A stretch of 64,000 nt of DNA from an uncultured virus (IMG/VR IMGVR_UViG_3300025632_000002). Lineage: Duplodnaviria > Heunggongvirae > Uroviricota > Caudoviricetes > Crassvirales. Position numbers and translations under genes: made by a program. Location: the IMG/VR virus record IMGVR_UViG_3300025632_000002. One strand, written 5' to 3'. Shown in pieces: positions 26,110-56,510 of this stretch; position 1 is the first letter of the stretch; each line of letters begins with the position of its first letter. The notes under the pieces were generated by a model. That model saw only the letters and a program-made list of their open reading frames with translations. It had not been told where the DNA came from and did no database searches.

Positions 26110-26672
26110 TGAGGTCACCAGGCGCATTTATAGTAAAGCCAAAAAATAGCAGCAGATACGATAACAAACGAAGGGCCGACGACGTTGAGTTTATCGTAAG
26201 TTCGTCTCAAGAAGACCACAGGTTTTCTAACCGCTACGCTATCGTACAGTCCGTCCCACTTTCTTATTCAGGCCCTATAGAGCCAGGGGACACGCTTCTG
26301 GTGCATCATAACGTATTTAAATATTACTACGATATGTATGGGGCTCAAAAAAGCGGTCGCAGCTATTTTAAGGATGACCTCTTCTTTGTAACCGACGACC
26401 AGTTTTTTTTGTACAAAAAAGATGACAAGTGGCGAGCGCACGGAAAGTATTGCTTTGTAGAGCCTGTAGAAGAAAAAGAATCGTGGATAGGTAAGTTCTC
26501 AAAAGAAGAGCCCCTTATCGGAAGGCTTAAGTATGGAAATGACGAGCTCTTAGCGCTCGGTGTAAACGAAGGCGATGAGATATCGTTTCTTCCTGATAGC
26601 GAGTATGAGTTTACTGTAGATGGGGAAAAGTTGTACCGTATGTTTACTGACAACATAACGCTGGTATTATGA
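26109..26672 (+). CDS. Protein with probable tandem GroES-like folds
   Basis: Each half resembles Cpn10: IEPGDTLLV in the first, VNEGDEISF...EFTVDGEKLYRMFTDNITLVL in the second. Confidence 0.65.
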   Translation: MRSPGAFIVKPKNSSRYDNKRRADDVEFIVSSSQEDHRFSNRYAIVQSVPLSYSGPIEPGDTLLVHHNVFKYYYDMYGAQKSGRSYFKDDLFFVTDDQFFLYKKDDKWRAHGKYCFVEPVEEKESWIGKFSKEEPLIGRLKYGNDELLALGVNEGDEISFLPDSEYEFTVDGEKLYRMFTDNITLVL

Positions 26673-36119: not shown

Positions 36120-37046
36120 ATGGCATACCTAACTCAATACCAATACTACGAAAACGATGGCGCTTCACCTGAAGACGCGAACTGGGGCTCCTATCAATAC
36201 GTGAGCCTGCGCGATATCGTCAGCAACTACCAGCTTATGTACAGCGGTAACAACGAGCTCGTCAACGAGAAGTCTCGGTATAAGATTCTGTTTCACGCTA
36301 AGCGAGCTATACAAGAGCTGAACTACGACGCATTTAAAGAAATTAAGGTATTGCAACTTAACGTGTCGGACGACCTGCGGTTTATTCTTCCAAGCGATTA
36401 CGTCAATTGGGTCCGTCTTTCTATGTTTAAAGATGGCGTGGTATTTCCCTTGACGGAGAATATACAGGTTACCAGCGCTCAGGCGTACCTACAAGATTCA
36501 AACAATCGCATTTTATTTGACGAGACAGGAGCGGCGTTAAAGCCAGAGTTCTCGCCTATCGATGAGGCCCGCCTCAATAAAACGTTGAAGTCTATGTACC
36601 TCAACGAAAACAGCCCGTATAACGGTTATGAAGGGTGGTGTATCGATGGGATGTGGTATTTTGACTTTCCTGTAGGGGGCGCTTGGTTTGGTCTTAACAC
36701 AGAGACTGCCAACGCTAATCCCACCTTTCGAATTGACGCTAAAGCGGGAGTTATAAATTTCAGCTCTGCTATGTCGGGGGAAAGCTGCATCCTTGAGTAT
36801 GTAAGCGACGGTATGGAAGGCGGTGATGACTCTTTGATTACGGTCAATAAACTTTTTGAAGACTACGTCTATGCGTATATTTCTTACGCTTTGCTAAACT
36901 CACATATGGGGACGCAGGAGTACATAGTAAATCGGGCTAAAAAAAATAAATCTGCTTTACTGCGCAATGCTAAAATTCGTATTAGCAACATACATCCTGG
37001 GCGTCTTTTGATGAACTTGCGCGGACAAAATAAGTGGATTAAATAA
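36120..37046 (+). CDS. Putative tail ring/tubular protein
   Basis: 308 aa; LP.DYVN.VR motif; position. Confidence 0.65.
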   Translation: MAYLTQYQYYENDGASPEDANWGSYQYVSLRDIVSNYQLMYSGNNELVNEKSRYKILFHAKRAIQELNYDAFKEIKVLQLNVSDDLRFILPSDYVNWVRLSMFKDGVVFPLTENIQVTSAQAYLQDSNNRILFDETGAALKPEFSPIDEARLNKTLKSMYLNENSPYNGYEGWCIDGMWYFDFPVGGAWFGLNTETANANPTFRIDAKAGVINFSSAMSGESCILEYVSDGMEGGDDSLITVNKLFEDYVYAYISYALLNSHMGTQEYIVNRAKKNKSALLRNAKIRISNIHPGRLLMNLRGQNKWIK

Positions 37047-40000
37047 TGGGCAACGTAAAGAGACACTTTATCAAGGGGCGTATGAACAAGAGCGTCGATG
37101 AACGCCTTGTTCCTAATGGGGAGTACATTAACGCTTTGAATGTACGTCTCGGCTCTACTGAAGGCTCTGAGGTAGGCTCTGTAGAGAATTCCAAGGGAAA
37201 TACTAAGCTTACTACTTTACAGTATAAAGGTGTTGATTTAAGCGAAGTAGCCCAGTGTATTGGCTCGTTTGAGGACGGCGTCAAAGAGACTATTTACTGG
37301 TTTATTCACGACGGTTCTAATTCAGTCTCTTCAACAGGAAAAGTAGATATGATTGTTTCGTACGAAACAAATTCGGACTTGTTGACGTACCACTTAGTTA
37401 GCGCTAGCGTACTCAACTTTAATCCGACTTATCTTATTACGGGAGTTAATAAAGTGGAGGACCTTTTATTTTTTACCGATGACTATAATCCACCACGCAA
37501 AATTAACGTTAAACGAAGTTACCCAGCCCCTACCTCAGCGGATAACGACCAAATTGTAGAAGACGATATATCGGTTATTAAGAAGCCGCCCAAAAAAGCT
37601 CCTACCCTTAATCTTATTGACATACCTGGAGAAGAAAATTATCTCGAGACTAACTTCGTTTCGTTTGCATATCGCTACAAATATATTGACAACGAGTATA
37701 GCGCTCTTTCGCAGTTTACTGACGTAGCTTTTGAAAGCAGCCCCTTTAACTTGGACCCCGACACCAACTTCAATGACGGGATGCTTAACCGTTACAACAC
37801 GGCTGTCGTAGGGTTTAACACGGGAGACTCTAACGTTATAGGGATAGACGTATGCTTTAAGCTAGGTAACGATTTTGATGTTCGTGTAGCCAAAAAATAC
37901 ATTAAATCTGAACAAGGGTGGCCTAACGAAATAGTCCAAACGCTCAACTTTACTAACCAAGAAATATATACGCTACTACCTTCTTCCGAGATATTGCGTC
38001 TATATGATAACGTTCCGCTTATTGCTCAGGCTCAAACGGTTATGGGCAACCGACTGATGTACGGAAATTATGAGGACGGATATGATTTAACTAGCTCTTC
38101 AGGAGCTTTAATAAAAACAAATTACACGGCTGAGGTAATATCAGAAATTATAAATATAACTCAGGACCAAGGCGAACAAGCTACGGGAGTGAATTATACT
38201 ATTGACACTAACTCTACCGTTACCGCTAATCAAGCTAAAGTTGTTTTTGATTTTACCGACTCTACCTATGATTTAGTACAGGGAGGCGTCTTTGGCTTTT
38301 CGTTTACTGTGTCTCACAAAGGGTTTTCAGGCTCGGGCTGGGGGACTAGCAGCTCTAACCCTCAGCACCCTTCGTTTAGTTTGTCGTTTACGTTTAACCT
38401 TGCTCAAGACTACAATAGTATTTTTGAAATGGTTAATAGCCCTGAGTTTCAAAATCAAATAGGGGTTACTAATTTTCAAAGCGTATCAAACTGTTCGTCG
38501 GGGAGTACGTTTACCGATACATATAACTGCGCTATTTCAGCGCCAGGCGGGTATACTCTCGCAAGCACGGGCATTACTAGCGGTAACCAAGGGTTTCTTA
38601 TAGGGAGTAGCGCTACTGCGCCCAATGTATTTTCGTTGCAGTTAATGGCGGCTCAATATACTAATACCAGTACCGCTTCGAATCAAAATTTTGAGTACTT
38701 TAAGATTAGCAATTCCGTATATAGTTTTCAAACAGAATCCAGCAACAAAAGCCTTCATAGTAATAGGGATTACGAGATAGGCATTGTATATATGGACGAA
38801 TACAAAAGAGCTACCACAGCTCTTACTAGTACGCAAAATACCGTTTTTGTTCCTCCTACAGCTAGCTCTTATATAAATAAAATAAGAGCAACATTGCCAG
38901 TAGGGATGACTGCCCCTAGCTGGGCACAAACATATAAGTTCGTCCTTAAACAATCCCGAGCTAATTACGATGTTATATACTCTAATACGTACTACTATGA
39001 CAATACCACGTCATCTTACTGGTTTCGACTAGTAGGTCAAGACCAGGCTCTGGTTCAAGCGGGGACTGAACTTATTGTAAAGCGCGACTCTTTAGGCACG
39101 TTATCCGAGGAGCGCAAGGTGACGGTGTTGGACAAGGTTTCCCAGCCCACTAATTTTTTAAGCCCAAACTCTGAACCAGTTGTAAATGTCCCAGGTCTCT
39201 ATATGCGCTTACGTGTACAGGGGTTTTCCGTAAGCCTTAGCTCTCAAAATATATGCTACCCTAGCGTAGTTAGTGTAGCCGATAATTTTTCAGATTTCTT
39301 AAACCCTATTGAAACTGAAAATAAATTCGACGGTTATTCAATAGTAAACTATCCTTTGTTTACGGGCTCTTCAACCTTTTCCTTTATTGATGTTCCTACT
39401 GCTAGCGTCGTAAGAATTAAAATTAAATTTAGAAGGGATGACTCTGGCTTGTGTGGGGGTCCAAATGGGGCAGAGCTATGCGTTGTAAACGAAACGTTTA
39501 CTGCTTCTCAACCATATGAGAATTTTTATACTTTTTGGGAGGGAGAAAATGTAGGGCCAGTTTTAACTAACGCGTTTAACTGTCAGGTTGCCTGTGAAGA
39601 TGAAAGTGGGCCTAATGAAATACAGATATTTCCTAACTATACAAGCGTATCTGAGAGTAGCAGCACTCCTATATATGCGCCTGAAGATAATGTAAATAAA
39701 ATAGGGTTTTACATTATAAATGACGGGACTGAACGTTTGTATTTACAATGTGTAAATGGAAGCAAATTTGTTGCAGGAGCTTTTGGCATAGGGTCTAAAG
39801 ATTCTAGAACAACCGTTGAAATTTGTATTCAGGAGCCTGGGAGCCTTGTCGCTTTTGAAACGGTACCCAATGAAATTGCAGACGGCGTATTCTTTGAAGG
39901 TAGCGAAAACTATGATATAGTAGGTGGATATCATCAGGGGAATGTAACGAACCAGGACGCTACTACTGAAGGCGTCGTTGATTTAGACTTTTTCAACTGC

Positions 40001-42457
40001 TATTCATTTGGTAACGGAATAGAAAGTTATAAGATTGAGGATTCATCTATTGGTCAGTCGTTCGCTTTAGGTGAGAGAACGATACTGGTTTCAGCTCAAG
40101 ACTTTAAGCGGGCAGACCGCTTTGCCGACATCACATACAGTGGCGTTTATAACGACGAAAGCAACGTCAATAAACTCAACGAGTTCAACCTAGGGCTCCT
40201 AAATTTTAAAACTTTAGAAGACGTATATGGCCCCGTTCAAAAAATGGTGGCTCGCGAAACGGACATATTAGTGTTGCAGGAAGACCGTATCTCTTATGTG
40301 CTTACGAATAAAGATGCAATTACCGATGCTGAGGGCGGTAACATTCTAACTGCGGCTCCTTTGATATTGGGCCAGCAGGTCGCTAGGGTAGAGGAATACG
40401 GAATCTCAGCTAACCCTGAAAGCTACGCTGAGTTCGGTATGGATAAATACTTTACTGACGCTAAGCGTGGTGCTGTCATTCAGTTGCGTGGCTCTAGCTT
40501 CAGTAACGAGCAGCTCTCCGTAGTTTCTCAAGAGGGTATGCGCAGCTACTTTAGGGATTTATTTAACGCTAACTTCAATACACAAAAGCTGGGTGGCTAC
40601 GACCCATATATGGACGAGTATGTGGTATCGTCAAATGAGAACAAGCTTCCTGTTGAGGCGGCCTGTGTGAATTGCGATATATCTCAAACATTTAACGTTT
40701 TCCCCAATAGCTTAGGCGAGACGTTTTGTGTAAACCTAGGCGCGGCAGTGGGAGACGTAACTTTAAGTTGGGGCACCCCTATCTTGAGTCCAAGCGCTAG
40801 CTTTGATGTTGTCGCTACTTATAACGGAACGAGCTTTTCTGCTACACAGCAGAATCAATCGGGAACGCTTATCTTCAATAAATCTACTATAAACCCCAAT
40901 ACGGTAGAAATAACTATTACAGCTAACGGAGGCCAGGTAGGAAACTTACAGCTCGGCGTGTCTTGCCCGAAGGAAAACGAATTAAAAATCGTTATGGTGT
41001 GCCTAACGTTAGATTGGCAGAACGGAAATACGATACACAATGAATTTAATTTTACTGAAGGAAGCTACAACAGCCCCCTATACCAATCTTTTGTAAGTTT
41101 TTCTAGCGGTGACAACCCTGTTGTTTCCGAGTATCAAATGTTGACTGGCAGTCAAGGCGTTGGTGTTTTTCCTACTAACGGCTCTACGGTTTACGTCCAG
41201 TCTAATAAGCTTTCCAGCGACACATTCCAATACAACCCCGTTAATAACGCCAACAGGCTACGTTATTTAAGGAGCTCTAACTTGTATGAAAATACCGCGT
41301 CTGGAATATCTAATCTTTTATCTGCTGGACCAACAACTTTAGACGTTACCCCAGGCACTACTGGCGCTTCTCTGTATTCAGGAAGCTTTACGTTGCCTAA
41401 TAATCTTGACGAGTACCTGTATTTAATATATGATTACAGGGAAGCACAGCCCGCTAAGCTTTGTTTCGGCTCTTCTGCTGGCCAGGCTTGTTGCGCCTGT
41501 AGCGCCCCTTCTTCGTTCTACTTAAACGGAGATAACTTAATGTCTTCTACTTCGGTATATACGGATGAGGGTTTGTCTTTGCTCGCGCCCGACCAGTTTT
41601 ATCAATCTACGGTTAACGGAAACTCTGTAGTTCGTGAACAGTCGGGAGGTGTTCTTTTACCTACTGTTTCTTGCGCTGCTTGTGATAGAAAATGTACCGA
41701 CGCTAAGCCATTACCTATAGCGGGGACAACTTTGTCTAATCAACAGATTTATGAAGTTAGTTATGATTTGGCTACAGGCACAGGCGTGGTAGCAATTCGT
41801 TTTACCCCTGGAGCCCCCTCTGGTATTTTTGCTACATACAACAACCAAACCACGAGTGTTTCTAGCGCTACTACAATAACCTCAGGAAACAATCCATCTT
41901 CTTCTTATTTCGAAGGTCCATATTACGGTGACGACACAATATGTACCCCCGCGAGTGGTGTGTTTCCAATTTATAAATGGGATGAAGTTGATGAAAATTT
42001 TGAAGATAGCGAAACTACCGATTCTATTAATATAGTCTCTGCCGATTTGGCAAGCCTTACTAGCGGAGGAGCGGGCAAATATGTTCTTTACGTTTCTAAA
42101 CCGACAGCTGCTCCTTCTACCTTAGACCTTCGTATAATAAGTGCTTGTCCACCAGCATCAGCGGCCCCCAACTGGTCAGTCGATGTAGACTGCCCTCGTA
42201 TCCTCACTGGATTTTCTGCTAGCGTTATGGTAAATGAATCTGGAAACGTATGTTCCGAGCCTATAAACCAGACTTTATATAACCTCCCCGTCCTGTCCCC
42301 TAATTTATTTGGCATTCCTGAAGTACGCGATTGGGTGTTTAAAGATGAGCTAGGTCAGTCATTGGCGGATGATGGATACTATAATATAGAGGACTTGGGT
42401 GGGTTGTGTTTATACATTCACGTTGTAGGTGGAGTTATCGTAGAAAAAACAAGCTAA
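37046..42457 (+). CDS. Putative tail nozzle/stabilisation protein with Cys-rich C-terminal extension
   Basis: GRMNKSVDERLVP.GEY..ALN start and YFTD.KRG.V..L, recognised as podovirus tail-hub-type motifs. Confidence 0.7.
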   Translation: MGNVKRHFIKGRMNKSVDERLVPNGEYINALNVRLGSTEGSEVGSVENSKGNTKLTTLQYKGVDLSEVAQCIGSFEDGVKETIYWFIHDGSNSVSSTGKVDMIVSYETNSDLLTYHLVSASVLNFNPTYLITGVNKVEDLLFFTDDYNPPRKINVKRSYPAPTSADNDQIVEDDISVIKKPPKKAPTLNLIDIPGEENYLETNFVSFAYRYKYIDNEYSALSQFTDVAFESSPFNLDPDTNFNDGMLNRYNTAVVGFNTGDSNVIGIDVCFKLGNDFDVRVAKKYIKSEQGWPNEIVQTLNFTNQEIYTLLPSSEILRLYDNVPLIAQAQTVMGNRLMYGNYEDGYDLTSSSGALIKTNYTAEVISEIINITQDQGEQATGVNYTIDTNSTVTANQAKVVFDFTDSTYDLVQGGVFGFSFTVSHKGFSGSGWGTSSSNPQHPSFSLSFTFNLAQDYNSIFEMVNSPEFQNQIGVTNFQSVSNCSSGSTFTDTYNCAISAPGGYTLASTGITSGNQGFLIGSSATAPNVFSLQLMAAQYTNTSTASNQNFEYFKISNSVYSFQTESSNKSLHSNRDYEIGIVYMDEYKRATTALTSTQNTVFVPPTASSYINKIRATLPVGMTAPSWAQTYKFVLKQSRANYDVIYSNTYYYDNTTSSYWFRLVGQDQALVQAGTELIVKRDSLGTLSEERKVTVLDKVSQPTNFLSPNSEPVVNVPGLYMRLRVQGFSVSLSSQNICYPSVVSVADNFSDFLNPIETENKFDGYSIVNYPLFTGSSTFSFIDVPTASVVRIKIKFRRDDSGLCGGPNGAELCVVNETFTASQPYENFYTFWEGENVGPVLTNAFNCQVACEDESGPNEIQIFPNYTSVSESSSTPIYAPEDNVNKIGFYIINDGTERLYLQCVNGSKFVAGAFGIGSKDSRTTVEICIQEPGSLVAFETVPNEIADGVFFEGSENYDIVGGYHQGNVTNQDATTEGVVDLDFFNCYSFGNGIESYKIEDSSIGQSFALGERTILVSAQDFKRADRFADITYSGVYNDESNVNKLNEFNLGLLNFKTLEDVYGPVQKMVARETDILVLQEDRISYVLTNKDAITDAEGGNILTAAPLILGQQVARVEEYGISANPESYAEFGMDKYFTDAKRGAVIQLRGSSFSNEQLSVVSQEGMRSYFRDLFNANFNTQKLGGYDPYMDEYVVSSNENKLPVEAACVNCDISQTFNVFPNSLGETFCVNLGAAVGDVTLSWGTPILSPSASFDVVATYNGTSFSATQQNQSGTLIFNKSTINPNTVEITITANGGQVGNLQLGVSCPKENELKIVMVCLTLDWQNGNTIHNEFNFTEGSYNSPLYQSFVSFSSGDNPVVSEYQMLTGSQGVGVFPTNGSTVYVQSNKLSSDTFQYNPVNNANRLRYLRSSNLYENTASGISNLLSAGPTTLDVTPGTTGASLYSGSFTLPNNLDEYLYLIYDYREAQPAKLCFGSSAGQACCACSAPSSFYLNGDNLMSSTSVYTDEGLSLLAPDQFYQSTVNGNSVVREQSGGVLLPTVSCAACDRKCTDAKPLPIAGTTLSNQQIYEVSYDLATGTGVVAIRFTPGAPSGIFATYNNQTTSVSSATTITSGNNPSSSYFEGPYYGDDTICTPASGVFPIYKWDEVDENFEDSETTDSINIVSADLASLTSGGAGKYVLYVSKPTAAPSTLDLRIISACPPASAAPNWSVDVDCPRILTGFSASVMVNESGNVCSEPINQTLYNLPVLSPNLFGIPEVRDWVFKDELGQSLADDGYYNIEDLGGLCLYIHVVGGVIVEKTS

Positions 42458-45977: not shown

Positions 45978-48900
45978 ATGAACGAACAGGTAATTGACGA
46001 CTTATATGCGCGAGCCTTACAGAGTGGTTACAAGAAAGGACGTGCTGATTTCGTTCAATTGATACAATCAAATGAAGATGTATTCAATGATATGTATCAG
46101 TATGTTCAGTCTAAGGGATATGCTAAAGACGCTCAAAGTTTCTCCTCACTTGTAGGAAAGCGAACCGCCCCCACTGTAAAAAAAAAAGTTACGGCATCCG
46201 TATCGGAGCCTGGTTCTTTGGTCTCACCAGAGCCTGAAGTTCCTGTTGAGACAGCTATTGCCCCAGCGACTGAAGCTGCTGAACCAGCGACTACCCTAAC
46301 GGGAGCGGCTGACCCTGACTTTTTTGAGGAGCGTATGGAAATGATTTCGCCTCAACTTATCGACCGAGGCGATGAGGACGAAGTGGCTCAAGAGCTTACC
46401 GATGTGTTTAAGCCTTACGGATTTGAGGTTGAGCCCGCTGGTATAGGAGATGCTATAAAGGTAACCGCAGGCAATGGGAAGTCTATTGAGGTTGACCTTG
46501 ACCCATTTGAGATGCCTAAGATTCTAAGCCCCTTTGGCCTAGACTTCAATACCGAAACCGAGACCGCTGAAGCAAAAAAGCTACAAGACTTTTTAAGGGA
46601 AAACAGGCAGGAAGGATTAGACGCTCCCCGCAGGTTTGTAACCAATAAGCAACGAGACGATGAGGTAAAGCGCATTAATCAAAAGCAAAAAGAAATAAAC
46701 CGCTCCGCTCAAGACTACCTTAAAAGAAAACTAGAATTTCAAAATAAATACCCTCAGTTTTTAACCTATGACCCAGAGTATATAAAAAACAACCCCGAGG
46801 AGTACCAGAGGTTTTTGAATGATAGAGACAGCCTCGAAAAAGAACGAGAGTTTCTAGTTGAAATAGACCAAAAGGCAAAAGAAGAAGGGGCTCAGCTAGA
46901 TAGGCTAGCGGGAGAGTATACTGAGATGTTAGCCCAAAGAGGTTACTGGAGTGGAGGTGTGTTTAGAAATGAATTTATTCAAGGCATCGCTGAAATTGTG
47001 GCTGGCGCAAAGGACTTTGCTTTAGATACAGCCTACGACCCTAAGTTTCTTATGGAGACTGACCCCGAGTTCTTTAGGGATAACTACCTAAAAGAAGCTG
47101 CGGACAAGGGCTATGACGTTCCGTCTGCGTCTGATATGACGGTTGATGAATTTAAAGCTTGGATGAAAACCGACAAGGGTATCCCAGCAAAGGAAAGCAT
47201 AGCTATACAGACTAGTATAGTAGACACTAAGCTCAAGAGGCGCAAGCGCGGAGAACCAATTGATTACGAAGAAGCCTTAAACGCATACTCTCAATACGCT
47301 ACCTCTAAAAATATGGAGGTAACGGACGGCGAGCTTGCCGCTTTACGTCGCGGGCTTGACTTCTTGAAAGACCCCGAGTCTACTCCCGAAGCCGCAGACT
47401 TGATGTACGAGTCGTTTTGGGGCGGCGCTTTGTTAGGCGTTACTCGTTCGCTTCCAGCTATACTAGTCCCAGGTGGCTTTATTACTCGTACAGCGGCTAT
47501 GTACTCTCAAATAAGCAGCGCCTTAGAGCAAGAGATGGCTAAAGACCCTGACTTTCGGGATATATCTGAAGCTGAGAGGTTTCGATTGAAATTAGCTATT
47601 GGCTCTGCGTCTTCGGTTTTAGAATCCTTGGGTGTTAGGAATGTTCTAAAGCAAAAGGGGTTGCTTACAGGAATCCTTATGAAGGCTTTGAAAAAAACTC
47701 CTGCAAATGTCAAGGGTAAGGCTTTCAATGAAGTCGTTATGCGCGAAATTAATAGCGCTATTGGTCGAGGAGCGTTGGTTGTAACAAGCGCGGGCTTAGC
47801 TGAGTTTGAAACAGGGTTTTTGCAAGAGGGTGTAGACATCGGGTTTAAAAATGTCTACAACGAGATGAAGGGTAGAGATATGTTTGAAACCCCAGAAGGG
47901 GCTAGAGACATATTTGGTCGGATGCTTTATGCGGGAGCTCAAGAGGCTGTGGGTGGTTTTGTACTGGGAACTCCTGGGGCTATCAGCGCAGCGCGAAGGA
48001 GCTATGACTTTACGGCTGTCGATGACGCGACGTTTGAGATGTTTGAAAACGTAAGCTCCCAAACAGCTCGTGGCGAGCTGACTTACCGCCATATGTTTTA
48101 TACAAACCTCCAGGCTAGGATTAACCGAGGCGAGATAAGCAAGGCGGATGCACAGCAAGAGATGGACAACCTCGATGAGGTAATCGCCGTCAACCGAGAT
48201 ATCCCGTCCGACTTAACGGTAAGCCAGAAGAAGAAGGCTTTAGGGATATTACTTAGGAAGAAAGACTTACAGGAACAAATTGAAGGGAAAGACCCTATCC
48301 TTGTTAAACGCCAGCAAGAAGAACTGAACAGCCTTAACAGGGAACTAGACCAGATACTATACGGAACACCAGAAACAGATGCCATTCAAGAGCAAGGCCC
48401 AGAGAGCGTGGATGCACCAGAACCTACCAGAGATAGCGAAGCGGTGGGAGAAGGAGTACCCGACATCGGAGAACCTACCACAGAGGTTGAAGCCCAAGAC
48501 GACGTTACGGATGAAGCTCCAGCGCCGACGACGGAAGTCGCGGTAGACGAGGCGCCGACGGAGAAGCAACAAAAAGGATTGCAAAGGAGGATTGACAGGA
48601 GTAAAAAGGATTTTGCTGCCGCTACAAGTCTTGAAGAAAAAGCTAAAGCCCTTGTTAGGTACCTTAATAGCGTCTCTAACTCCAAGGGTATTGCAAGTGA
48701 AGAGGATGCGGCTTGGTACGAAGCGAATAAAGCTGAGCTAGAAGCTGAGGGATTTGTATTTGATGATATAGGTGATGAACTAGCTGATGGAAAGCCTGCT
48801 GACATCCGCAACGAAGAAACTAGCGATGCTGTTCCTAAAGGGAAAATAATTATAAAGGCTGTAGTCAAACCAGGGCGGGTGGTAGACGGGAAGGCAGTCA

Positions 48901-51900
48901 GCCGACCTACCTACGACGTAATTAGAGGAACAGGAACAACGGCTGCAAGGGATGCCTTAGTTGCTGAATTAAAGGCTTTGGAGGATGAACTAACTACAGA
49001 TAATTTTAATGAAATATCTCCTAAGCTAAAAGCCGCAAGAAAGGCTTTGAAGGATTACGATGATGCTAATTTCCCTTCATCTAAATCTGTTGCCGCCCCT
49101 AAGAAATCAGCCCCTAAGAAAACTGTGTCGGAGCCGACACAAGAGGTGACGGAGGAAGTCGCGGTAGAAGAAACCGTTCCCGTAGAGGTAGAACCTGTAA
49201 CCGCTCAAAGCGCGAGATATGCTCAGCTAATCGAGGACACCCCCGATAGTGTAGTTGAGCTGTTCGAGAATTGGACAAAGAGCCTTTTCTCCCCTGAAAT
49301 TGAAGCTATTGAAAATAAAGAACCATCTAACAGAACTCGCTCTGAAAGTGCTAAGCTTGCCGCTGTAACCCGTCGAATGAAGAAAGCTTTGGCAGCAGCA
49401 GAGGCGGCGGGTCTAGATAACTCAGCTCAGATAGAGTTGGAGAGGGCTGTTAGGGAGCGGCTTGAAACCCAAGAAGCTGCGGCTGTAGTAGCTGAAAATG
49501 TGTCGGAGCCGACACAAGAGGTGACCGAAGAAGAGCAGGTAGATATTGACGAGTTTTTTGGAGAACAAGACATAGAAGGCGTAGAGAAGGTCTCTGAGAA
49601 CCTCGTTATCAACCGCAAGCAAAAAGCTCCCACAGCTGACCCCAAGTCACAGCGGCGAATGAATCGAGTTCGTCAGATGTCGGTCAAGGCAGCGGCGTCC
49701 ATAAGGAAGATAGCTCCCGAAGTAAAAATCCTTATTCACGAAAGCCCTGAAGAATATCAGAGATTTGCAGGGGAGCAAACGGCAGGGAATTACAACCCCA
49801 AGACTAAAACGATTCATATCAACCTCGGCAAAGCGAATCTGTATACGGCGCCTCACGAAGTATTTCACGCTTTGCTTTTGCAAACCATAAGCACTGATTC
49901 CGAAGCTTTAACGGTTTCACGCAAGATGCTCGAGTCGGTACGTAAAGTTGTCGACCCCAATAGCCAAATGGCTAAGGACATAGATGAGTTCGTTGCTCGC
50001 TACGGAGACGCTCCTACCATACAGGACGAAGAGTACCTTGCGCAGCTAACGGGCATCCTTACTGCTGAATATCGTACGCTCAATAAGCCAGCAAAGAACG
50101 CCGTTAAGGATTTTTTACGAAAGCTGGCAAAGATGCTCGGGCTAGAGAAATACTTAGGCCCTGAGTTTCTGAAGACGGACGAGCAGGTCATCGACCTTTT
50201 GAATACCATCTCTCGGAGGATGTCTGAAGGAGAGTATATCGAGGCAGCTGACGTGCAGGCTATGGGTGATATCCTGTCTGAAGCTACTCCCGCTGAGCAG
50301 GCTCAAGCACAGCGTGAAGTTAGAGACTTCAAACGTAAGGAGAGGGAGAGGAAAGCCACTGAGGAAAACCTTTTAAATAGGAGTCAGGAATACGTTCAAG
50401 ACTTTGATGAGTTAGAAAGGCTCAACAATGAAGGCGTTATGTTTCACTTTGGCCCAGTCGATATCCAAGAAGTGATGCCTGAAAAACTTAGGCTAATGGT
50501 TTCAGGATATGGTATCTACTTTATAGACAAAGCCGAAAGCCCTACAACATATTCTTTGTACGCGAGTCGATATGGAAAAAGGGTTACCCTTGTTGATGGA
50601 AATGGTATGAATTTAGTTGACTCTGGCTCTAAGATTAGCAAAGAAGAGTTTACCACTCTTATGGACACTTTCAACAAAGAGGTTGCTGCTTTGGACGAGG
50701 TGAGCCCTGAGATAACCGAGTTGTCTGATTACTTAAACGAGTTAGACTTGGACCTCCAAGGAGCCAATCCTACTTGGTACGAGATGTTAACCACTATGTC
50801 TCCTGACTTACTGCCTTCTGATAGTGATTTCTTTTTGGGCGGAGTGATTGATAAAGCTTACAACTATACTAATCCTCAGAAGATGTTCATTGCTGAGGTA
50901 ACGGCTAAAGCTTTGGGGTATGACGGGGCTACAAGTATAATAGGTAAGGGTAGCATTGAAGAACACAGTGTCGTTAACGTATGGAACTTCGACAAGGTAA
51001 ATAAAAATATCATCTCTGACGAGGCAGTTACACCACGTATGCAGGTGGTTCCTCGCCAGCAGGTAGCTGATGCAGCTACATCTATACAGGAATCTCTGAA
51101 GTTTGCAGATAAGAGTTCATTCCCCAACAAGCTTGAGTTTAAGCGAGCTTTACAGGAGCGCTTTGATAACGAGGTGTACCCTCTCATTAAGGAGCGCTAT
51201 GGAGTAAAGGACAACCGCTCCAATACCGACCAAGGTCTCAAAGACTATCTCGTTGATGCGTATCTCAACGAGACGCTCACCGCTATCGAAGCGTATCCCG
51301 ACGCTTTGGGATGGTATGACGCTCGTATCACAGGTGCTATGTCGTTGATGGAGAAGCTGCACCCTGAGCTCGCTACCGATAAAGACGCTGCATCTACCTT
51401 TAAGATTGCATTGGCTATTACATCGAACGGAAACAAGGTATACGACAACTTCGTAGAAGCCAATCGTCAGTATGAATACTTTAAGGAAAACGGTAAGTTC
51501 GATGACACTTACTCTATTGGAGACCAGAGGGCGGGGATACTCTCTACACTAGCCTTTACCAACAAGGCGTTGGAGTCGATGTCTATGGCGGACTTCACAG
51601 CGTTTCTTACTACCAAATACAGGGCGGGCGATTTGAAGTATATGAAGGACGGCAAGAAGACCCCGCTCCTTCCAGGATTCGCTGTTGATGAAGAGGTTTA
51701 CGGAGCATCTATCTTTGGTCCTAAGATTGGTAATGGGTTCTTTATGAATCTATATGGCGAGTTCAACCAGCTCACTATGGATAGGTGGTTTATGCGTCAG
51801 TTCGGTCGATTGACGGGAACCCTCATTGATTATGACCAGAAGAAGGTAGACGCGGGAACCAAGCGTTTGAACCGAGCTATCAAAGCTTTGGCTAAACGCA

Positions 51901-54900
51901 ACGCTGCTAAGCTATCTGAGATGATTCCTGGATGGGATAAGATGTCCGCTGAAGAGCTGTCAAGTAAGATTCAGAAGGCTAGTATGGACCTCAAGAAGAG
52001 GGCTACCTTCAAGTCTAACCCTAAGCTCGACGAGGTACGTAAGGCTGGAAATAACTTGAGCAAGCAAGTAAGCGCTGAAGTTGAAGCTCCTCGTAACAGC
52101 TCACAGCGTAAGTTTATCAACGAGGTCTTTACTGAGTTGCAGGCTAAGCTCAAGAACGATTACGATATTGACATTACGATTGCAGATTTGCAGGCGGTAA
52201 ACTGGTATCCAGAGAAGGCTTTATATCAAACATTTAAAGCTGACCAAAGTACGAAGACAGGGAAAGTCGAGACCAGTGACAATGAGCAGCCCGACTATGA
52301 GAGTGCTGCCAAGAAATTAGTAGAAGAACAGGGCGTATCTAAAAAAGAAATTAAAGAAGATGAAGCAAGACGAAGTAAACAGCTTGAGCGAAACACCGCC
52401 AATCGAGAAGCTATCGAGCAAAGAGCAGGGGAGCTTAATAAAGATGATATCGAGGCTTCCGAAGTCAAGCGTCTCAAAGACAAAATAATATCCGTCAAAG
52501 AAGACGTCACTTCGTCGGGCCTTGAAGAAGGCGTAGCCCCTCGCCAGCAACTGAGTGATATCGCTACTCCGCTTCCGCGTCAGCAGAAGTCGGTACGTGA
52601 GGTGGTGCAGCAGGCGAGAGACAATAACTTCAAGGACGCAGCAACCAAAGACTTCCTCAAGCGCAAGGGTGTGCCAACAGCAGACATAGACAAGGCTATC
52701 AAGACCTTGGACGAGGTATACGCCCGAGTGATGAAGGAGATTGACGGCGTCATCACTAAGTCTCAGAAGCGCGGTGTCGACTTCGACACACAACTGAAGA
52801 ACGCGCTGGCTTACCTACAAGGCACTAAGCTCTACGAGGATACCACGGATATCCACAGAGAGAAGTTGATGCGTGAGGTACGCGCTAAATTCGATAAGAA
52901 AGAAAAGCGAGCACCGTCAGCGAAGCGTATCCTTGGAAACATTAAAGACGTCAAGAAGGTGACGCTAAAGGAGAAGGAGGCGCTCAAGATGCAGCTGAGG
53001 CTCGTAGCTAAGACCGCTAAAACCACAGCGAGAGCTTTGGTGGTAGCGAGCAATGAACTGACTAAGTCACTGAAGGAGATGGTCAAGGGTGGTGTCATCA
53101 CTGCCAATCAGATGAGCTCTGTCCTGCGTCGGTTCAGCCGAGTGGACCTGTTCAACCCCGCCAGCATCGATAGCTTCTTGGACTATATGGCTAAGATATT
53201 CGCCGATGCTGAGTACGGAGCGAAGATTGCTAGAATCAAGAAGCTGCTTCCTCGAGCCAAGAAGAATATAAAGTCTAAGATTGGCGTTGCCGACGTGCTC
53301 GGTGACACCCTCACTAAGCTCTTCAATGTCAACCCTACGTTGATACCGATGGAGATGCTTGAGGACTATCAAAATCTCCTTGAGATGATGGGTGCTGCGA
53401 AGAAGGTGCTCCCACTTGCAGACATCAACGATGTAACGGAGGTAGCTAATAAGCTGCTTAACGCGGTATACGAAGAGGTATCGATGGCCGAGGACTTGGC
53501 CGAGGTATTTGCGAACTACGAGAATAAAGTCATCAAGGACGGCAAGGTAGACTACGCAGCTACCGTTCGCGCTATGATAGCTGACGAGACCATATCAGAG
53601 GCGGAAGCCACTGTAATGATTAAGTACAAGTCCCGTATCGTAGAGTCTACCACGAAAGAACCTAAGACCGAGGAGGAGCTAGCCGAGGAAAGGGCTGAGC
53701 TTATGTCGGCGGTTGATGCGGCCAAGGTCAACGTCTCGCGTCTCGTTATGGACGAGGAACGAACCTTAGCTCGTCAGCTCGCCAAGCTGATGCGTACCGA
53801 GGCTATCGAGAGGCTCAGCAACCAGCAGCTAGAGACGCTGCTAGCCGTCATCGACAACATCAACAACGGCTTCGTAACCCACGCGGCCAATAGGTTGTAT
53901 GTAAATATGAACGCTTTAAACAATGATAATCAATTGGCAGACTCTTTACAGGAAGCTGACCCGTTATCTATATCAAAGTTTGTAGCCAAGATAAAAGGTG
54001 GCATTACTCAGAATAATAAATTCTTTGAAGCTATCAAGAGACGGCCATTGGCATATATAGATTCATTGTTCGGAGACTTCAAAACTAACCGTATATACAA
54101 CTCTGTATTTAGGCCATTGGCAAAAGCTTTTGACTCTATGAATGTAGAGATTCAAAGAATCGAGGAGCGGTTAGATAATGCAGAAAATGCAGTAAGAAAG
54201 TCTTTTAAACGCAATCCAAATAAAGTTCGCTTGTCATCGTACAAGAGGATGACGTATATGTTACAGCGTGAGTTTGAAGCTAATCCTGATAACGGACAGG
54301 TAAACCCAGCTGCTGACTTCATCCGAGCTACCATTGACCATATCAATGAAGGGAAGTCTTTCTTCAAGGGCAGAGACGCAGAGATGCTTCAGCAAATACT
54401 TGACGACTTCGGTGTAAGTGTTAAGGACGCGGACGGAAATGAAGTTATACAGATTGACTCTCAGAAGCTGTACGACTCATTCAATAAAGCAGAGCGCAAT
54501 GCGATTGTAGTAGCAGAAGACATAAACAAGTCTCTTGCAAGCAAAGCTTCATTTACAGCAGCAGTAATTCAAGGTAGAAGAGCCGATATATTAAACCAGT
54601 ACGCACACCATAACGTACTGAGTAGTAGCGAGCAAGCTGACAAGTCAACAAGTATATCAGAAATTCAGAAATACAACCAGTCACTTCGGGCCTCTACCAA
54701 AGCTAAGAATTCAATTGAGCGTACGGGAGCCGTAACTCCATTGAACTTTGATGTGTTAACGTCGGTGTCGCGAGGCGCTAAAATGATGCTAACAGACTTC
54801 TACCTTACAGACCCTGTACGCACATCACGAAAGACCATATCGAATACGCGTAAAGTTTTAGAGGAAAGGGGCAACGCAACAAAGCAGGACAAAGAAATAT

Positions 54901-56510
54901 TAAACGCAATTGACCAAGCCCTTGAACTTGCCCTTGACGACGTCTTAACCAAGACTTTCACGCAGGGAACTATGGTAGACAACATCATTCAGTACATATC
55001 GAAGACGGGCTACCGAGTAGTTTTGGCCTCAGTGAGTCGTTTTGGAGCGGAAGGGTTGAGTAATAGTGGATTTGTATCCTTGTTTGCTCCGAAACAAATG
55101 GCGTTGGGTTTGTCGAAAGAGAATATGAAACTGTCCATTGGTAGTGGGGGAACCGCAGTAGATATTCTGTCTGCTCTAGGTAGCACACAAATTTCTAGGT
55201 TATTTCCTGACCAGATGCTGTCTGGACGTATGATTGACACTTCAGTTCTTGGGGAAAAGTCTGGAGATAAAGGGGGTAGAGCTTATGGCGAGGTAGCCAA
55301 CAAGATGTTGCAGATATATAATGGAGTAGTAAAACCTGGGAAAGAGGGTGTCGAGAGGGTGGCTGATGGATTAATATCTACCCCAGATAAAGCCGTTATC
55401 CGACCGCTATGGTTTGGGTCTTTTGAATATAAGTTCGAGGAACTTACAAAGAAGAAACCAGATATGGACAAGATAGCCGCAAACGATGAGGCTTATATGG
55501 ATGCTAATCAAAAAGCCCTAGACGAAGCTACTGACTATGCGGACCAGATGACGACATTTGCTGGAGCCGCCGACAATCCATTCAAAGGTCTTCTTAAAGG
55601 CAAGTACCCGTCAAGCGTGAAGCAGTCGGCTATGCTTCAAGCGTTTAACATATCTAACAGCTTTATGACCCGCTTCTTGATATATGAATTTATATCAGCT
55701 CAAATAGGAACGTACGCTATGATGGGTAGGGGTATGATTTCTAAACGTCAAGGTGCGGCACTCCTCGGAGCCGTTACCACCCGTATGGTAGTGTATACTT
55801 TGTTAACCACTTTATTTGCTCAGATATTTAAGCAAGCGTTTGGATTGGGTGATGAGGAAGAAGAGAAAGACATAGAGAAGCAGTTCGGTCAGGCACTGGC
55901 CTCTACTGCCGTCAGCCTTATAGTAGGCCGAGACTTCGGTAACATAGTGAAGGGTCTCCTTAACTACGGGGTGGAGAACCTCAACGAAGAGTTCCTAGAC
56001 GAGCTACGTGACGGAGACTACGACCCGTACCGAGACGCTATCGCGTACACCTTTGTTCCGCCAGACAAGGAGTACAAGTCCAACACGCTAGCGGATTACA
56101 TACGTAACCTGATGGGTCCGTTCGGCCCCTTCTATAAGATGGCGGAGTTCGGTGTGAAGACGCTTAGCGCCGACGAGAAGAAAGACCCAGCGGCACGTAT
56201 ACGTCAGCAGCGAGAGCTCAATGAACGACTCCCGCTCGAGTTACTCGGAAACTTAGGATTGATTCCTCTGTACCGCGATATCAGGGCGCTCTTACTAGCC
56301 GATATCTACAAGGGTATGGGCAAGGAGAAGAAAGGAAGCAGTACAGGTATGACTAAGGCTGAAAAGGCTCAGATGAAGGAATACTTCCCTGAACTATACA
56401 AGATGCAGATGCAGATGGAAGAAGATATGAAGAACCCTGAGCTCGAGAAATTCGAAAAAGAGATGAAGCTACTTGAAAAGCAGCTTGAAGAATCCCTAAA
56501 GCAGCGCTGA
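45978..56510 (+). CDS. Giant polyvalent, probably ejected, virion protein (zincin peptidase, ART-like, HhH-glycosylase-like and GrpE-head-like domains)
   Basis: 3510 aa; APHEVFH; FHFG...GYGIYF...YASRYG...LGYDG; WYD...AITSNG...GPKIG..F.NL...TMDRW..R. Confidence 0.8.
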   Translation: MNEQVIDDLYARALQSGYKKGRADFVQLIQSNEDVFNDMYQYVQSKGYAKDAQSFSSLVGKRTAPTVKKKVTASVSEPGSLVSPEPEVPVETAIAPATEAAEPATTLTGAADPDFFEERMEMISPQLIDRGDEDEVAQELTDVFKPYGFEVEPAGIGDAIKVTAGNGKSIEVDLDPFEMPKILSPFGLDFNTETETAEAKKLQDFLRENRQEGLDAPRRFVTNKQRDDEVKRINQKQKEINRSAQDYLKRKLEFQNKYPQFLTYDPEYIKNNPEEYQRFLNDRDSLEKEREFLVEIDQKAKEEGAQLDRLAGEYTEMLAQRGYWSGGVFRNEFIQGIAEIVAGAKDFALDTAYDPKFLMETDPEFFRDNYLKEAADKGYDVPSASDMTVDEFKAWMKTDKGIPAKESIAIQTSIVDTKLKRRKRGEPIDYEEALNAYSQYATSKNMEVTDGELAALRRGLDFLKDPESTPEAADLMYESFWGGALLGVTRSLPAILVPGGFITRTAAMYSQISSALEQEMAKDPDFRDISEAERFRLKLAIGSASSVLESLGVRNVLKQKGLLTGILMKALKKTPANVKGKAFNEVVMREINSAIGRGALVVTSAGLAEFETGFLQEGVDIGFKNVYNEMKGRDMFETPEGARDIFGRMLYAGAQEAVGGFVLGTPGAISAARRSYDFTAVDDATFEMFENVSSQTARGELTYRHMFYTNLQARINRGEISKADAQQEMDNLDEVIAVNRDIPSDLTVSQKKKALGILLRKKDLQEQIEGKDPILVKRQQEELNSLNRELDQILYGTPETDAIQEQGPESVDAPEPTRDSEAVGEGVPDIGEPTTEVEAQDDVTDEAPAPTTEVAVDEAPTEKQQKGLQRRIDRSKKDFAAATSLEEKAKALVRYLNSVSNSKGIASEEDAAWYEANKAELEAEGFVFDDIGDELADGKPADIRNEETSDAVPKGKIIIKAVVKPGRVVDGKAVSRPTYDVIRGTGTTAARDALVAELKALEDELTTDNFNEISPKLKAARKALKDYDDANFPSSKSVAAPKKSAPKKTVSEPTQEVTEEVAVEETVPVEVEPVTAQSARYAQLIEDTPDSVVELFENWTKSLFSPEIEAIENKEPSNRTRSESAKLAAVTRRMKKALAAAEAAGLDNSAQIELERAVRERLETQEAAAVVAENVSEPTQEVTEEEQVDIDEFFGEQDIEGVEKVSENLVINRKQKAPTADPKSQRRMNRVRQMSVKAAASIRKIAPEVKILIHESPEEYQRFAGEQTAGNYNPKTKTIHINLGKANLYTAPHEVFHALLLQTISTDSEALTVSRKMLESVRKVVDPNSQMAKDIDEFVARYGDAPTIQDEEYLAQLTGILTAEYRTLNKPAKNAVKDFLRKLAKMLGLEKYLGPEFLKTDEQVIDLLNTISRRMSEGEYIEAADVQAMGDILSEATPAEQAQAQREVRDFKRKERERKATEENLLNRSQEYVQDFDELERLNNEGVMFHFGPVDIQEVMPEKLRLMVSGYGIYFIDKAESPTTYSLYASRYGKRVTLVDGNGMNLVDSGSKISKEEFTTLMDTFNKEVAALDEVSPEITELSDYLNELDLDLQGANPTWYEMLTTMSPDLLPSDSDFFLGGVIDKAYNYTNPQKMFIAEVTAKALGYDGATSIIGKGSIEEHSVVNVWNFDKVNKNIISDEAVTPRMQVVPRQQVADAATSIQESLKFADKSSFPNKLEFKRALQERFDNEVYPLIKERYGVKDNRSNTDQGLKDYLVDAYLNETLTAIEAYPDALGWYDARITGAMSLMEKLHPELATDKDAASTFKIALAITSNGNKVYDNFVEANRQYEYFKENGKFDDTYSIGDQRAGILSTLAFTNKALESMSMADFTAFLTTKYRAGDLKYMKDGKKTPLLPGFAVDEEVYGASIFGPKIGNGFFMNLYGEFNQLTMDRWFMRQFGRLTGTLIDYDQKKVDAGTKRLNRAIKALAKRNAAKLSEMIPGWDKMSAEELSSKIQKASMDLKKRATFKSNPKLDEVRKAGNNLSKQVSAEVEAPRNSSQRKFINEVFTELQAKLKNDYDIDITIADLQAVNWYPEKALYQTFKADQSTKTGKVETSDNEQPDYESAAKKLVEEQGVSKKEIKEDEARRSKQLERNTANREAIEQRAGELNKDDIEASEVKRLKDKIISVKEDVTSSGLEEGVAPRQQLSDIATPLPRQQKSVREVVQQARDNNFKDAATKDFLKRKGVPTADIDKAIKTLDEVYARVMKEIDGVITKSQKRGVDFDTQLKNALAYLQGTKLYEDTTDIHREKLMREVRAKFDKKEKRAPSAKRILGNIKDVKKVTLKEKEALKMQLRLVAKTAKTTARALVVASNELTKSLKEMVKGGVITANQMSSVLRRFSRVDLFNPASIDSFLDYMAKIFADAEYGAKIARIKKLLPRAKKNIKSKIGVADVLGDTLTKLFNVNPTLIPMEMLEDYQNLLEMMGAAKKVLPLADINDVTEVANKLLNAVYEEVSMAEDLAEVFANYENKVIKDGKVDYAATVRAMIADETISEAEATVMIKYKSRIVESTTKEPKTEEELAEERAELMSAVDAAKVNVSRLVMDEERTLARQLAKLMRTEAIERLSNQQLETLLAVIDNINNGFVTHAANRLYVNMNALNNDNQLADSLQEADPLSISKFVAKIKGGITQNNKFFEAIKRRPLAYIDSLFGDFKTNRIYNSVFRPLAKAFDSMNVEIQRIEERLDNAENAVRKSFKRNPNKVRLSSYKRMTYMLQREFEANPDNGQVNPAADFIRATIDHINEGKSFFKGRDAEMLQQILDDFGVSVKDADGNEVIQIDSQKLYDSFNKAERNAIVVAEDINKSLASKASFTAAVIQGRRADILNQYAHHNVLSSSEQADKSTSISEIQKYNQSLRASTKAKNSIERTGAVTPLNFDVLTSVSRGAKMMLTDFYLTDPVRTSRKTISNTRKVLEERGNATKQDKEILNAIDQALELALDDVLTKTFTQGTMVDNIIQYISKTGYRVVLASVSRFGAEGLSNSGFVSLFAPKQMALGLSKENMKLSIGSGGTAVDILSALGSTQISRLFPDQMLSGRMIDTSVLGEKSGDKGGRAYGEVANKMLQIYNGVVKPGKEGVERVADGLISTPDKAVIRPLWFGSFEYKFEELTKKKPDMDKIAANDEAYMDANQKALDEATDYADQMTTFAGAADNPFKGLLKGKYPSSVKQSAMLQAFNISNSFMTRFLIYEFISAQIGTYAMMGRGMISKRQGAALLGAVTTRMVVYTLLTTLFAQIFKQAFGLGDEEEEKDIEKQFGQALASTAVSLIVGRDFGNIVKGLLNYGVENLNEEFLDELRDGDYDPYRDAIAYTFVPPDKEYKSNTLADYIRNLMGPFGPFYKMAEFGVKTLSADEKKDPAARIRQQRELNERLPLELLGNLGLIPLYRDIRALLLADIYKGMGKEKKGSSTGMTKAEKAQMKEYFPELYKMQMQMEEDMKNPELEKFEKEMKLLEKQLEESLKQR
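48379..48546 (+). CDS. Nested out-of-frame small basic protein MPFKSKAQRAWMHQNLPEIAKRWEKEYP... (55 aa)
   Basis: Read manually in the +1 frame of the giant gene; resembles small phage proteins of the MPFKS.KQR.WM....PE.A.RW type. Confidence 0.7.
   Translation: MPFKSKAQRAWMHQNLPEIAKRWEKEYPTSENLPQRLKPKTTLRMKLQRRRRKSR

What the first reader, a model, noticed from the sequence alone, without database searches (positions are those of the whole stretch)
48379..48546. Small gene overprinted inside the 3510-aa gene
Seen: the +1 frame encodes MPFKSKAQRAWMHQNLPEIAKRWEKEYPTSENLPQRLKPKTTLRMKLQRRRRKSR, after an A-rich context (AGAAACAG-ATG), while the main frame reads as an acidic linker (DAIQEQGPESVDAPEP...). 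From recall, MPFKS.KQR.WM...PE.A.RW proteins occur as stand-alone small genes in other phages. Inference: a real nested gene, with the linker sequence constrained by the hidden frame.
Basis: partly seen in the sequence, partly recalled or inferred. Interest (0 to 1): 0.75.

Follow-up and report, generated by a model that had tools for sequence, protein, structure and literature searches.

The report
Hidden small gene inside giant gene
A 55-codon gene for a tiny, very basic phage protein is written one base out of step inside a 3510-codon virion-protein gene, and comparison with many other phages indicates that it is a real gene kept by selection and missed by standard annotation.

Summary
The ORF is there as described: 48379-48546, 55 aa, +1 frame of the 3510-aa gene 45978-56510. 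It is not a chance ORF. It belongs to a large family of small basic phage proteins that all begin MPFKS. That family has 4375 clusters at E<=1e-3, and 39 of 77 aligned members match phrog_1375, of unknown function.

A profile built only from 36 free-standing copies scores the window's ORF at 78 bits. The next best of 1308 window ORFs scores 7 bits against the wider family profile.

The same gene sits in the same frame inside ORFs of 1000 aa or more in 22 of 80 viral loci and 15 of 77 genome-collection loci. It is also nested in 68 cultured Flavobacterium phage records and one further GenBank phage, and is annotated in none of them. In three relatives it lies just after the giant gene's stop.

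Substitutions spare the small frame (pN/pS 0.37) and not the giant's frame (1.54). The small gene appears to be the older one, and the giant's acidic "linker" is its out-of-frame shadow.

Expression is inferred, not shown. Function is unknown; I guess a nucleic-acid-binding protein linked to the phage head. This scan noted the same family nested in another genome (e1-6241700).

The parts
48379..48546 (+). Nested small gene, 55 codons plus TAG. It encodes an MPFKS-family protein with 17 K/R, 4 D/E and pI 11.7.
   Evidence: Family profile scores are 82.9 bits and 78.2 bits from free-standing copies only. Hits in a 5.8-billion-protein search run from E 2e-24 to 2e-4.
48354..48378 (+). A-rich, weakly structured stretch before the internal ATG. 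This is the presumed ribosome-loading region. It has no Shine-Dalgarno sequence, like the other genes of this phage.
   Evidence: A position matrix from 41 gene starts of the window scores it 3.69, against a median of 3.28 for real starts. It ranks 3rd of 184 ATGs in the giant gene. The RNA fold of 48339-48418 has MFE -8.1 kcal/mol and z +1.13.
45978..56510 (+). Host gene: a 3510-aa giant virion-type protein. Its C-terminal ~800 aa match phrog_32588, and it has an HExxH motif at aa 1293.
   Evidence: Homologues align across the nest site without a stop.
48378..48545 (+). Giant-frame reading of the same DNA (aa 801-856): an acidic, low-complexity spacer between conserved blocks.
   Evidence: A related giant gene in G002 has an unrelated spacer at this site, between flanks that are 36% identical.

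Best explanation
48379-48546 is a real protein-coding gene embedded in the +1 frame of the giant virion-protein gene.

Shown:
- It is a member of a large family of 37-98-aa, strongly basic phage proteins.
- The family has an invariant N-terminus (M1 P2 F3 K4 S5) and further invariant residues Q8, P17 and A20, with W23 nearly invariant.
- The predicted fold is a two-helix hairpin followed by a basic tail.
- The family occurs free-standing, directly after a giant gene, or nested in a giant gene, always in the same relative frame.
- Substitutions in nested copies conserve the small frame and not the giant frame.
- Complete genomes with a nested copy have no other copy.

Inferred:
- The protein is made by independent initiation at the internal ATG on the late mRNA of the giant gene. 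This phage uses no Shine-Dalgarno sequence and relies on an A-rich unstructured context. Nested copies in GC-rich relatives carry AGGAGG-type sites.
- The small gene is older than its nested position. It was captured into a tolerant spacer of the giant ORF, or the ORF was welded across it. The giant frame's acidic 'linker' is the shifted reading of the codons for a basic peptide.

Function (weakest step, about 35%): a nucleic-acid-binding small protein of the head and packaging module, perhaps carried in the virion with the DNA and the giant cargo protein.
For: Homology: 19 hits from E 2e-24 to 2e-4, all starting MPFKS. There are 435 tblastn-confirmed places among 601 pattern matches in viral contigs. 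4375 representative clusters reach E<=1e-3 and 1163 reach E<=1e-10. A profile of 36 free-standing copies scores all 23 giant-nested copies at 51-79 bits.

Recurrence of nesting:
- 22 of the 76 classified loci (of 80 kept) are nested in ORFs of 1000 aa or more, all in the same frame.
- 15 of 77 loci are nested in an independent scan of genome contigs.
- MW202828.1 and Flavobacterium phage elemoF_6-3D each have one copy, nested and unannotated.
- All 68 elemo records show only 'structural protein' under the match.

Selection over the first 27 codons, nested set of 22 distinct copies: small frame pN/pS 0.37, giant frame 1.54. Free-standing copies give 0.27 and 1.46. Phe3 is TTC in 37 of 37 nested copies against 18 of 36 free copies. 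Strain variants in metagenome contigs are 4 synonymous and 3 conservative changes in the small frame, but S>R, P>L, R>P, D>S and A>E in the giant frame. This comes and my own reading of the codons.

Relocation: in L006, L013 and L030 the gene starts 1-10 nt after the stop of a giant-gene homologue. G002's giant is 36% identical to L012's over 793 aa, but has an unrelated spacer where L012 has the nest. G002, G003 and G004 have one copy each.

Start signals: the start-context score ranks 3rd of 184 ATGs. AGGAGG-like sites sit upstream in nested L043, L079 and L041, and also in L029, a 150-999-aa class locus whose nesting is doubtful.

Context of free copies, 36 loci: large terminase directly upstream in 5, portal adjacent in 4, GroES downstream in 4.

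Structure and charge: mean pLDDT 81.9, with helices at 6-15, 17-26 and 40-54. The family's median net charge is +13.
Against: No direct evidence of translation. The two RNA-library runs that hold parts of the stretch are contigs from one study and cannot show transcription, ends or translation. No promoter-like motif was found nearby.

The window's own protein does not reach any PHROG or Pfam model, although 39 of 77 relatives match phrog_1375.

The pN/pS figures are uncorrected proportions over 27 codons, from non-independent and near-saturated pairs.

The 80 viral loci are the ones most similar to the window's protein, so the nested share is not the share for the whole family.

The function has no support from folds: nothing in PDB, and only uncharacterised relatives among viral models. 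Fusion partners are heterogeneous.
Confidence: 0.82

Rival explanations
1. The ORF is a dead relic. A once free-standing gene was swallowed by the giant ORF, is no longer translated, and survives only because the spacer has not yet decayed.
For: There is no expression evidence. The giant-frame spacer tolerates almost any sequence.
Against: The ORF is intact with an ATG in all 22 viral and 15 genome-collection giant-nested copies, although the host proteins are only 25-30% identical or undetectably similar. pN/pS is 0.37 in the small frame. The nested copy is the only copy in the complete genome MW202828.1 and in the elemoF_6-3D record, filed as partial.
Confidence: 0.06
2. The frame is reached by programmed frameshifting rather than by its own start. 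One route is +1 from the giant frame, giving a truncated giant protein with an MPFKS tail. The other is -1 out of the small frame, giving an MPFKS-headed version of the giant's C-terminal 2650 aa.
For: Proteins with an in-frame MPFKS head on longer bodies exist: 369 of 120-2000 aa at E<=1e-3.
Against: A stop lies a median of 5 codons upstream of the ATG in the small frame, and within 10 codons in 18 of 23 copies. The family's domain starts at residue 1 in most of the top 150 representatives. The in-frame fused proteins show no similarity to the giant or mid-size host proteins. I saw no slippery run when reading the window's ORF.
Confidence: 0.05
3. The conservation belongs to the giant protein's frame or to a nucleic-acid signal, and the small ORF is a by-product.
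For: The first ~30 nt are so conserved that contigs of other phages pile up there. Depth is 287 at 48338-48404, against 24-30 in most other bins.
Against: Free-standing copies have stops in the giant-equivalent frame and are annotated genes. The giant frame shows pN/pS 1.54. A related giant gene lacks the segment altogether.
Confidence: 0.04

Closest known systems
Lambda Rz/Rz1 two-component spanin genes. The embedded, overlapped and separated architectures are from my own knowledge. PMC6139136 and PMC5295617 were seen only as search listings and abstracts.
   Same: A small gene lies wholly inside a larger phage gene in the +1 frame with its own start. In other phages the same two genes lie apart.
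   Different: Rz1 is an outer-membrane lipoprotein that works with Rz in lysis. Here the small protein is a soluble, very basic helical peptide, and the host gene is a giant virion-type protein read as a spacer. No interaction between the two is shown.
Free-standing MPFKS-family genes (phrog_1375, function unknown), for example Streptomyces phage FlowerPower gp48 (YP_009838084.1) and phage 023Pt_psg01 URG13095.1
   Same: Same N-terminal core, size and basic tail. 39 of 77 aligned members match phrog_1375.
   Different: Those are separate genes. The window's copy is nested, and does not itself reach the PHROG model.
Classical overprinting in viruses, meaning de novo birth of a gene in an alternative frame. 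The review PMC8227390 was seen as an abstract.
   Same: Two proteins are read from one stretch of DNA in different frames.
   Different: Here the embedded frame is the widespread, older gene, and the host-frame segment is the lineage-specific, unconstrained one.
Pfam DUF3008 (PF11450)
   Same: It is the nearest Pfam-labelled cluster in the language-model search, at score 0.81, which is a lead only. I also recall a similar MP.KSKAQ start.
   Different: 0 of 77 family members match it at E<=1, so I do not file the ORF there.

Membership tests
MPFKS small basic phage protein family (my own profile; overlaps phrog_1375) | Conserved N-terminal core: M1 P2 F3 K4 S5 Q8 P17 A20 invariant, W23 nearly invariant | tested here: met
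   The eight invariant columns and the nearly invariant W23 in 77 sequences are all present in the window's protein.
MPFKS small basic phage protein family (my own profile; overlaps phrog_1375) | Significant match to a profile built from free-standing members only | tested here: met
   78.2 bits, E 3.6e-23.
MPFKS small basic phage protein family (my own profile; overlaps phrog_1375) | Short length and basic tail | tested here: met
   55 aa, with a tail at 29-55 holding 11 K/R and 1 D/E. The family median is 51 aa with net charge +13.
phrog_1375 | Direct match of the window's protein to the PHROG model | tested here: not met
   0 families at E<=10 for P0001, although 39 of 77 relatives match, best E 8.4e-7.
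Out-of-frame embedded phage gene (Rz1-in-Rz type of architecture) | Lies wholly inside another gene, on the same strand, in a different frame | tested here: met
Out-of-frame embedded phage gene (Rz1-in-Rz type of architecture) | Homologous gene pairs occur in a separated arrangement in other phages | tested here: met
   In L006, L013 and L030 the small gene lies just after the giant gene.
Out-of-frame embedded phage gene (Rz1-in-Rz type of architecture) | The embedded gene is translated from its own start | not testable with these tools
   Only indirect evidence: start context ranks 3rd of 184, and Shine-Dalgarno-like sites occur in relatives.
Classical de novo overprinted gene | The embedded frame is younger and more restricted than the host frame | tested here: not met
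   The family has 4375 clusters and many free copies. The host spacer is not conserved.
Programmed-frameshift product | No own start is needed; the frame is open upstream; a slippery site is present | tested here: not met
   ATG in every copy. A stop lies within 10 codons upstream in 18 of 23 copies. I saw no slippery run.
Pfam DUF3008 (PF11450) | Match to the Pfam model | tested here: not met

The most novel reading that the evidence does not exclude
This is 'reverse overprinting' with a functional link. Giant virion-cargo genes of phages grow or persist by reading straight through an older, intact small gene, turning its shifted codons into an acidic spacer. The arrangement is kept in many lineages because the small basic protein works with the giant protein and the packaged DNA. 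Its invariant N-terminal module might serve as a head-targeting or DNA-tethering handle, so co-expression from one mRNA would be an advantage.
Probability: 0.25. Interest if true: 0.75.

Novelty: new variant of a known kind. Interest (0 to 1): 0.62.

Why it matters
A conserved gene is missing from the annotation of every public record I checked that has it nested: 68 cultured Flavobacterium phage records and one environmental genome. Small-protein inventories of phages therefore undercount.

It is also a clear natural case in which the embedded frame is the older gene and the host gene's segment is the passenger. This bears on how giant phage genes are assembled and on how overlapping genes arise.

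Because cultured phages carry it, and a start-codon change can be made silent in the giant frame, the question can be tested directly.

Tried and rejected
- Family libraries. Pfam and PHROGs gave nothing for the window's protein. Pfam on all 77 aligned members gave only scattered chance hits.
- Giant-gene similarity. blastn and tblastn of the giant-gene region against cultured phages found no match.
- Short tblastn of a typical family member found one record only.
- Own assembly. The genome search 'own' failed because the assembly is not held, so I used the nearest record, G001.
- Folds. Foldseek against PDB gave nothing at E<=0.001. Viral models returned only uncharacterised relatives. The PDB sequence search gave a 13-residue chance match.
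- Complex prediction of the small protein with the giant's conserved C-terminal 830 aa gave no verdict, score 0.00. This is no evidence either way.
- Promoter. The Bacteroidota-type promoter motif TANNTTTG is not enriched, and the nearest is 500 nt upstream.
- RNA fold at the start is not significantly open, z +1.13.
- RNA libraries. Contigs of X16 and X17 (one study) touch the stretch but cannot show expression.
- Family tree of 70 small proteins is poorly resolved. It shows only that the 'nested in giant' state changed at least twice.
- In-frame fused proteins are not similar to the host proteins.
- The IF3_C fusion P0222 is probably a chimera, because its first 41 aa equal the nested copy of L106.
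- The 14 'nested in 150-999 aa ORF' cases are less certain, because the host start was taken as the first start codon after a stop. L029 looks like an extension of a terminase gene.
- Literature searches found no description of the family or of its nesting.

Full report
OBSERVATION

The window holds a 3510-codon ORF at 45978-56510 on the + strand. Inside it, one base out of step, is an ATG-initiated ORF of 55 codons at 48379-48546. The giant frame reads the same DNA as residues 801-856, an acidic spacer with a D+E fraction of 0.30. The peptide has 17 K/R and 4 D/E, with pI 11.7.

WHAT THE WINDOW IS

The window is a tailed phage of the type that infects Flavobacteriia.
- It encodes GroEL, GroES, large terminase, portal and a run of virion structural proteins, then the giant gene.
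- Its terminase is 73.5% identical to the environmental genome MW202828.1. It is about 44% identical to the listed Flavobacterium phages of the 'elemo' group; 15 Cellulophaga phage records also match below 60%.
- The giant protein's last ~800 residues match phrog_32588, of unknown function.
- Pfam gives only sub-threshold hits, one of them to a virion RNA polymerase domain.

IS THE ORF MORE THAN CHANCE?

Pfam and PHROGs do not recognise the peptide. Three other searches do.
- tblastn against cultured phages found weak matches that begin exactly at the annotated start codon of free-standing small genes. These were Streptomyces phage FlowerPower gp48 (72 aa) and marine phage 023Pt_psg01 URG13095.1 (39 aa). 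It also found an unannotated 34-codon ORF in phage C75C1.
- A search of 5.8 billion proteins gave 19 hits from E 2e-24 to 2e-4, every one starting MPFKS.
- A profile search of 1.84 billion representatives gave 4375 clusters at E<=1e-3 and 1163 at E<=1e-10. The match starts at residue 1 of the protein in most of the 150 listed.

Two controls confirm the match.
- A profile built without the window's row scores the ORF at 82.9 bits. The next best of the window's 1308 ORFs scores 6.9 bits.
- A profile built only from 36 free-standing copies scores it at 78.2 bits.

39 of 77 aligned members match phrog_1375, of unknown function. None matches a Pfam family convincingly.

THE NESTING RECURS

A scan of viral contigs confirmed 435 places among 601 pattern matches, and the best 80 loci were kept. 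A start-motif search placed a copy in 76 of the 80. The other four were inspected later and are two free and two N-terminally fused copies.

With the window, the 77 copies fall into four classes:
- 23 nested in an ORF of 1000 aa or more. The small gene sits 356-1267 codons into it and is always +1 relative to it.
- 14 nested in ORFs of 150-999 aa. These are less certain (see the tried-and-rejected section).
- 36 with no covering ORF.
- 4 at the head of a longer protein.

These 80 loci are the ones most like the window's protein, so the shares are not those of the whole family.

An independent scan of species-representative genomes gave 86 confirmed places. The 77 distinct loci kept from them split as 15 nested in giant ORFs in the same frame, 9 in mid-size ORFs, 50 free, 2 fused and 1 in the other frame.

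Several host giants are 25-40% identical to the window's giant on one or both sides of the nest. Nine of the 22 viral-locus giants show no BLAST similarity to it. Those scanned match other giant families, namely phrog_11358 and a 'DarB-like antirestriction' family; one carries a ParB/methyltransferase block, and one has no match.

The complete GenBank genome MW202828.1 and the Flavobacterium phage elemoF_6-3D record (filed as a partial genome) each hold exactly one copy. It is nested in the annotated giant gene and not annotated itself. All 68 elemo records show only 'structural protein' under the match.

WHICH FRAME IS SELECTED?

The test covers the first 27 codons, which align without gaps.
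- The 22 distinct giant-nested copies give pN/pS 0.37 in the small frame and 1.54 in the giant frame.
- Free-standing copies give 0.27 and 1.46 for the equivalent frames.
- These are uncorrected proportions from non-independent, near-saturated pairs, so they are descriptive only.

Variability at the small frame's third position is lower in nested copies (0.95 bits) than in free copies (1.38 bits). This fits a mild extra constraint from keeping the giant frame open.

The clearest such constraint is Phe3. It is TTC in 37 of 37 nested copies and in 18 of 36 free copies, because TTT-AAR would create TAA in the giant frame.

Strain variants seen in metagenome contigs at 48407-48442 are four synonymous and three conservative changes in the small frame (A10G, E18Q, I19V). 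In the giant frame they give S>R, P>L, R>P, D>S and A>E. This comes, with the codons read by me.

THE SMALL GENE MOVES

In L006, L013 and L030 the small gene starts 1-10 nt after the stop of a giant gene whose C-terminus aligns to the end of the window's giant.
- The giant of G002, the record of L030, aligns at 36% identity over 793 residues with the giant of L012.
- That alignment runs straight across the place where L012 has the nest, but G002 has an unrelated spacer there.
- G002, G003 and G004 each have a single copy, the downstream one.

A tree of 70 small proteins is poorly resolved, but its supported branches require at least two changes of the nested state.

The family is wide, the host spacer is not conserved, and a related giant lacks the segment. 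Together these make the small gene the older unit. The acidic spacer is largely the shifted reading of K/R codons.

HOW IT IS PROBABLY EXPRESSED (INFERRED)

Genes of this phage have no Shine-Dalgarno sequence, only A/T-rich leaders.
- A matrix from 41 gene starts scores the internal ATG at 3.69, against a median of 3.28 for real starts. This ranks 3rd of 184 ATGs in the giant gene.
- The local RNA is weakly folded, though not significantly so.
- In GC-rich relatives the nested ATG is preceded by AGGAGG-like sites at normal spacing: L043, L079 and L041 among the giant-nested loci, and L029 among the doubtful mid-size class.
- A stop lies a median of 5 codons upstream in the small frame. This argues against entry by frameshifting.
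- There is no direct evidence of translation. RNA-library contigs from one study touch the region but cannot show it.

WHAT THE PROTEIN MAY DO

AlphaFold2 on 77 sequences gives a confident small fold: mean pLDDT 81.9, helices at 6-15 and 17-26, an extended stretch, then helix 40-54. Fold searches return only uncharacterised relatives.

Free copies sit mostly among small unknown genes. The neighbours that can be named lean towards head assembly and packaging. Among 36 loci, large terminase is directly upstream in 5, portal is adjacent in 4, GroES is downstream in 4 and a scaffold is downstream in 1. Endonuclease VII, ribonucleotide reductase and others also occur.

The module also heads longer proteins with unrelated bodies: GH24 lysozyme behind a membrane segment, cupin, a ParB-like nuclease, a HerA-like domain and DUF5661.

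My best guess, at about one in three, is a nucleic-acid-binding protein of the head and packaging module, possibly carried in the virion.

COMPARISON WITH WHAT IS KNOWN

The architecture is that of lambda Rz1 in Rz, where the same two genes are embedded, overlapped or separate in different phages. The proteins and the host gene here are unrelated to spanins. It also differs from classical overprinting, because the embedded gene is the older one.

I found no description in the searched literature. The searches were:
- Listings and abstracts.
- Passages of PMC5512222 on giant 'polyvalent' phage proteins, searched for overlapping, embedded, frameshift, small protein, linker and Cellulophaga. The single hit was irrelevant.
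- Passages of PMC7077304, which turned out not to treat the elemo phages.
- No supplements were read.

Earlier notes of this scan report the same family nested in a 2219-codon virion gene of another genome (e1-6241700), and similar small basic genes in giant phage genes (e1-6223425, e1-6170145). I saw them after my own analysis, and they agree with it.

VERDICT

This is a real, selected and unannotated nested gene of a known but uncharacterised family, in an arrangement that recurs across many phage lineages.

Noticed in passing
window 8283-9908 and 26109-26672: The phage encodes its own GroEL (541 aa, phrog_5725) and GroES-like co-chaperonin (187 aa). In several related phages the free-standing MPFKS gene lies directly upstream of GroES.
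   Followed up: partly
window 13388-21145, 37046-42457, 45978-56510: The window has three very long ORFs of 2585, 1803 and 3510 aa. Only the last carries a family match.
   Followed up: partly
window 49854-49868 (giant aa 1293-1297): An HExxH motif (zinc-protease-like) in the giant protein. No Pfam family reached threshold there.
   Followed up: no
window 49128-49157 and 49503-49532: The same ten-residue acidic motif occurs twice in the giant protein's spacers. One metagenome contig joins 48500 to 49148 with 20 other letters between. This may be a strain with a different spacer, or a repeat artefact.
   Followed up: no
window 48338-48404: Metagenome and RNA-library contigs of other phages pile up on the first ~30 nt of the small gene, with unlike sequence on both sides. 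The 5' end of the gene is therefore conserved at the DNA level across relatives.
   Followed up: partly
L092:12380-12505 (NC_055853.1 52379-52504) and L093:9596-9724, minus strand (MW202828.1): The nested copies of the elemo phages and of MW202828.1 are a variant with two cysteines in the hairpin. They are 42 and 43 aa long.
   Followed up: no
protein P0222 (128 aa, metagenome): An MPFKS protein joined to an IF3 C-terminal domain (E 1.5e-40). Its first 41 residues equal the nested copy in L106, and the join lies in a lysine run, so it is probably an assembly chimera.
   Followed up: partly
L003:1501-1605 (OQ984151.1, Phage C75C1): An unannotated 34-codon free-standing family member lies between two annotated small genes.
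   Followed up: no
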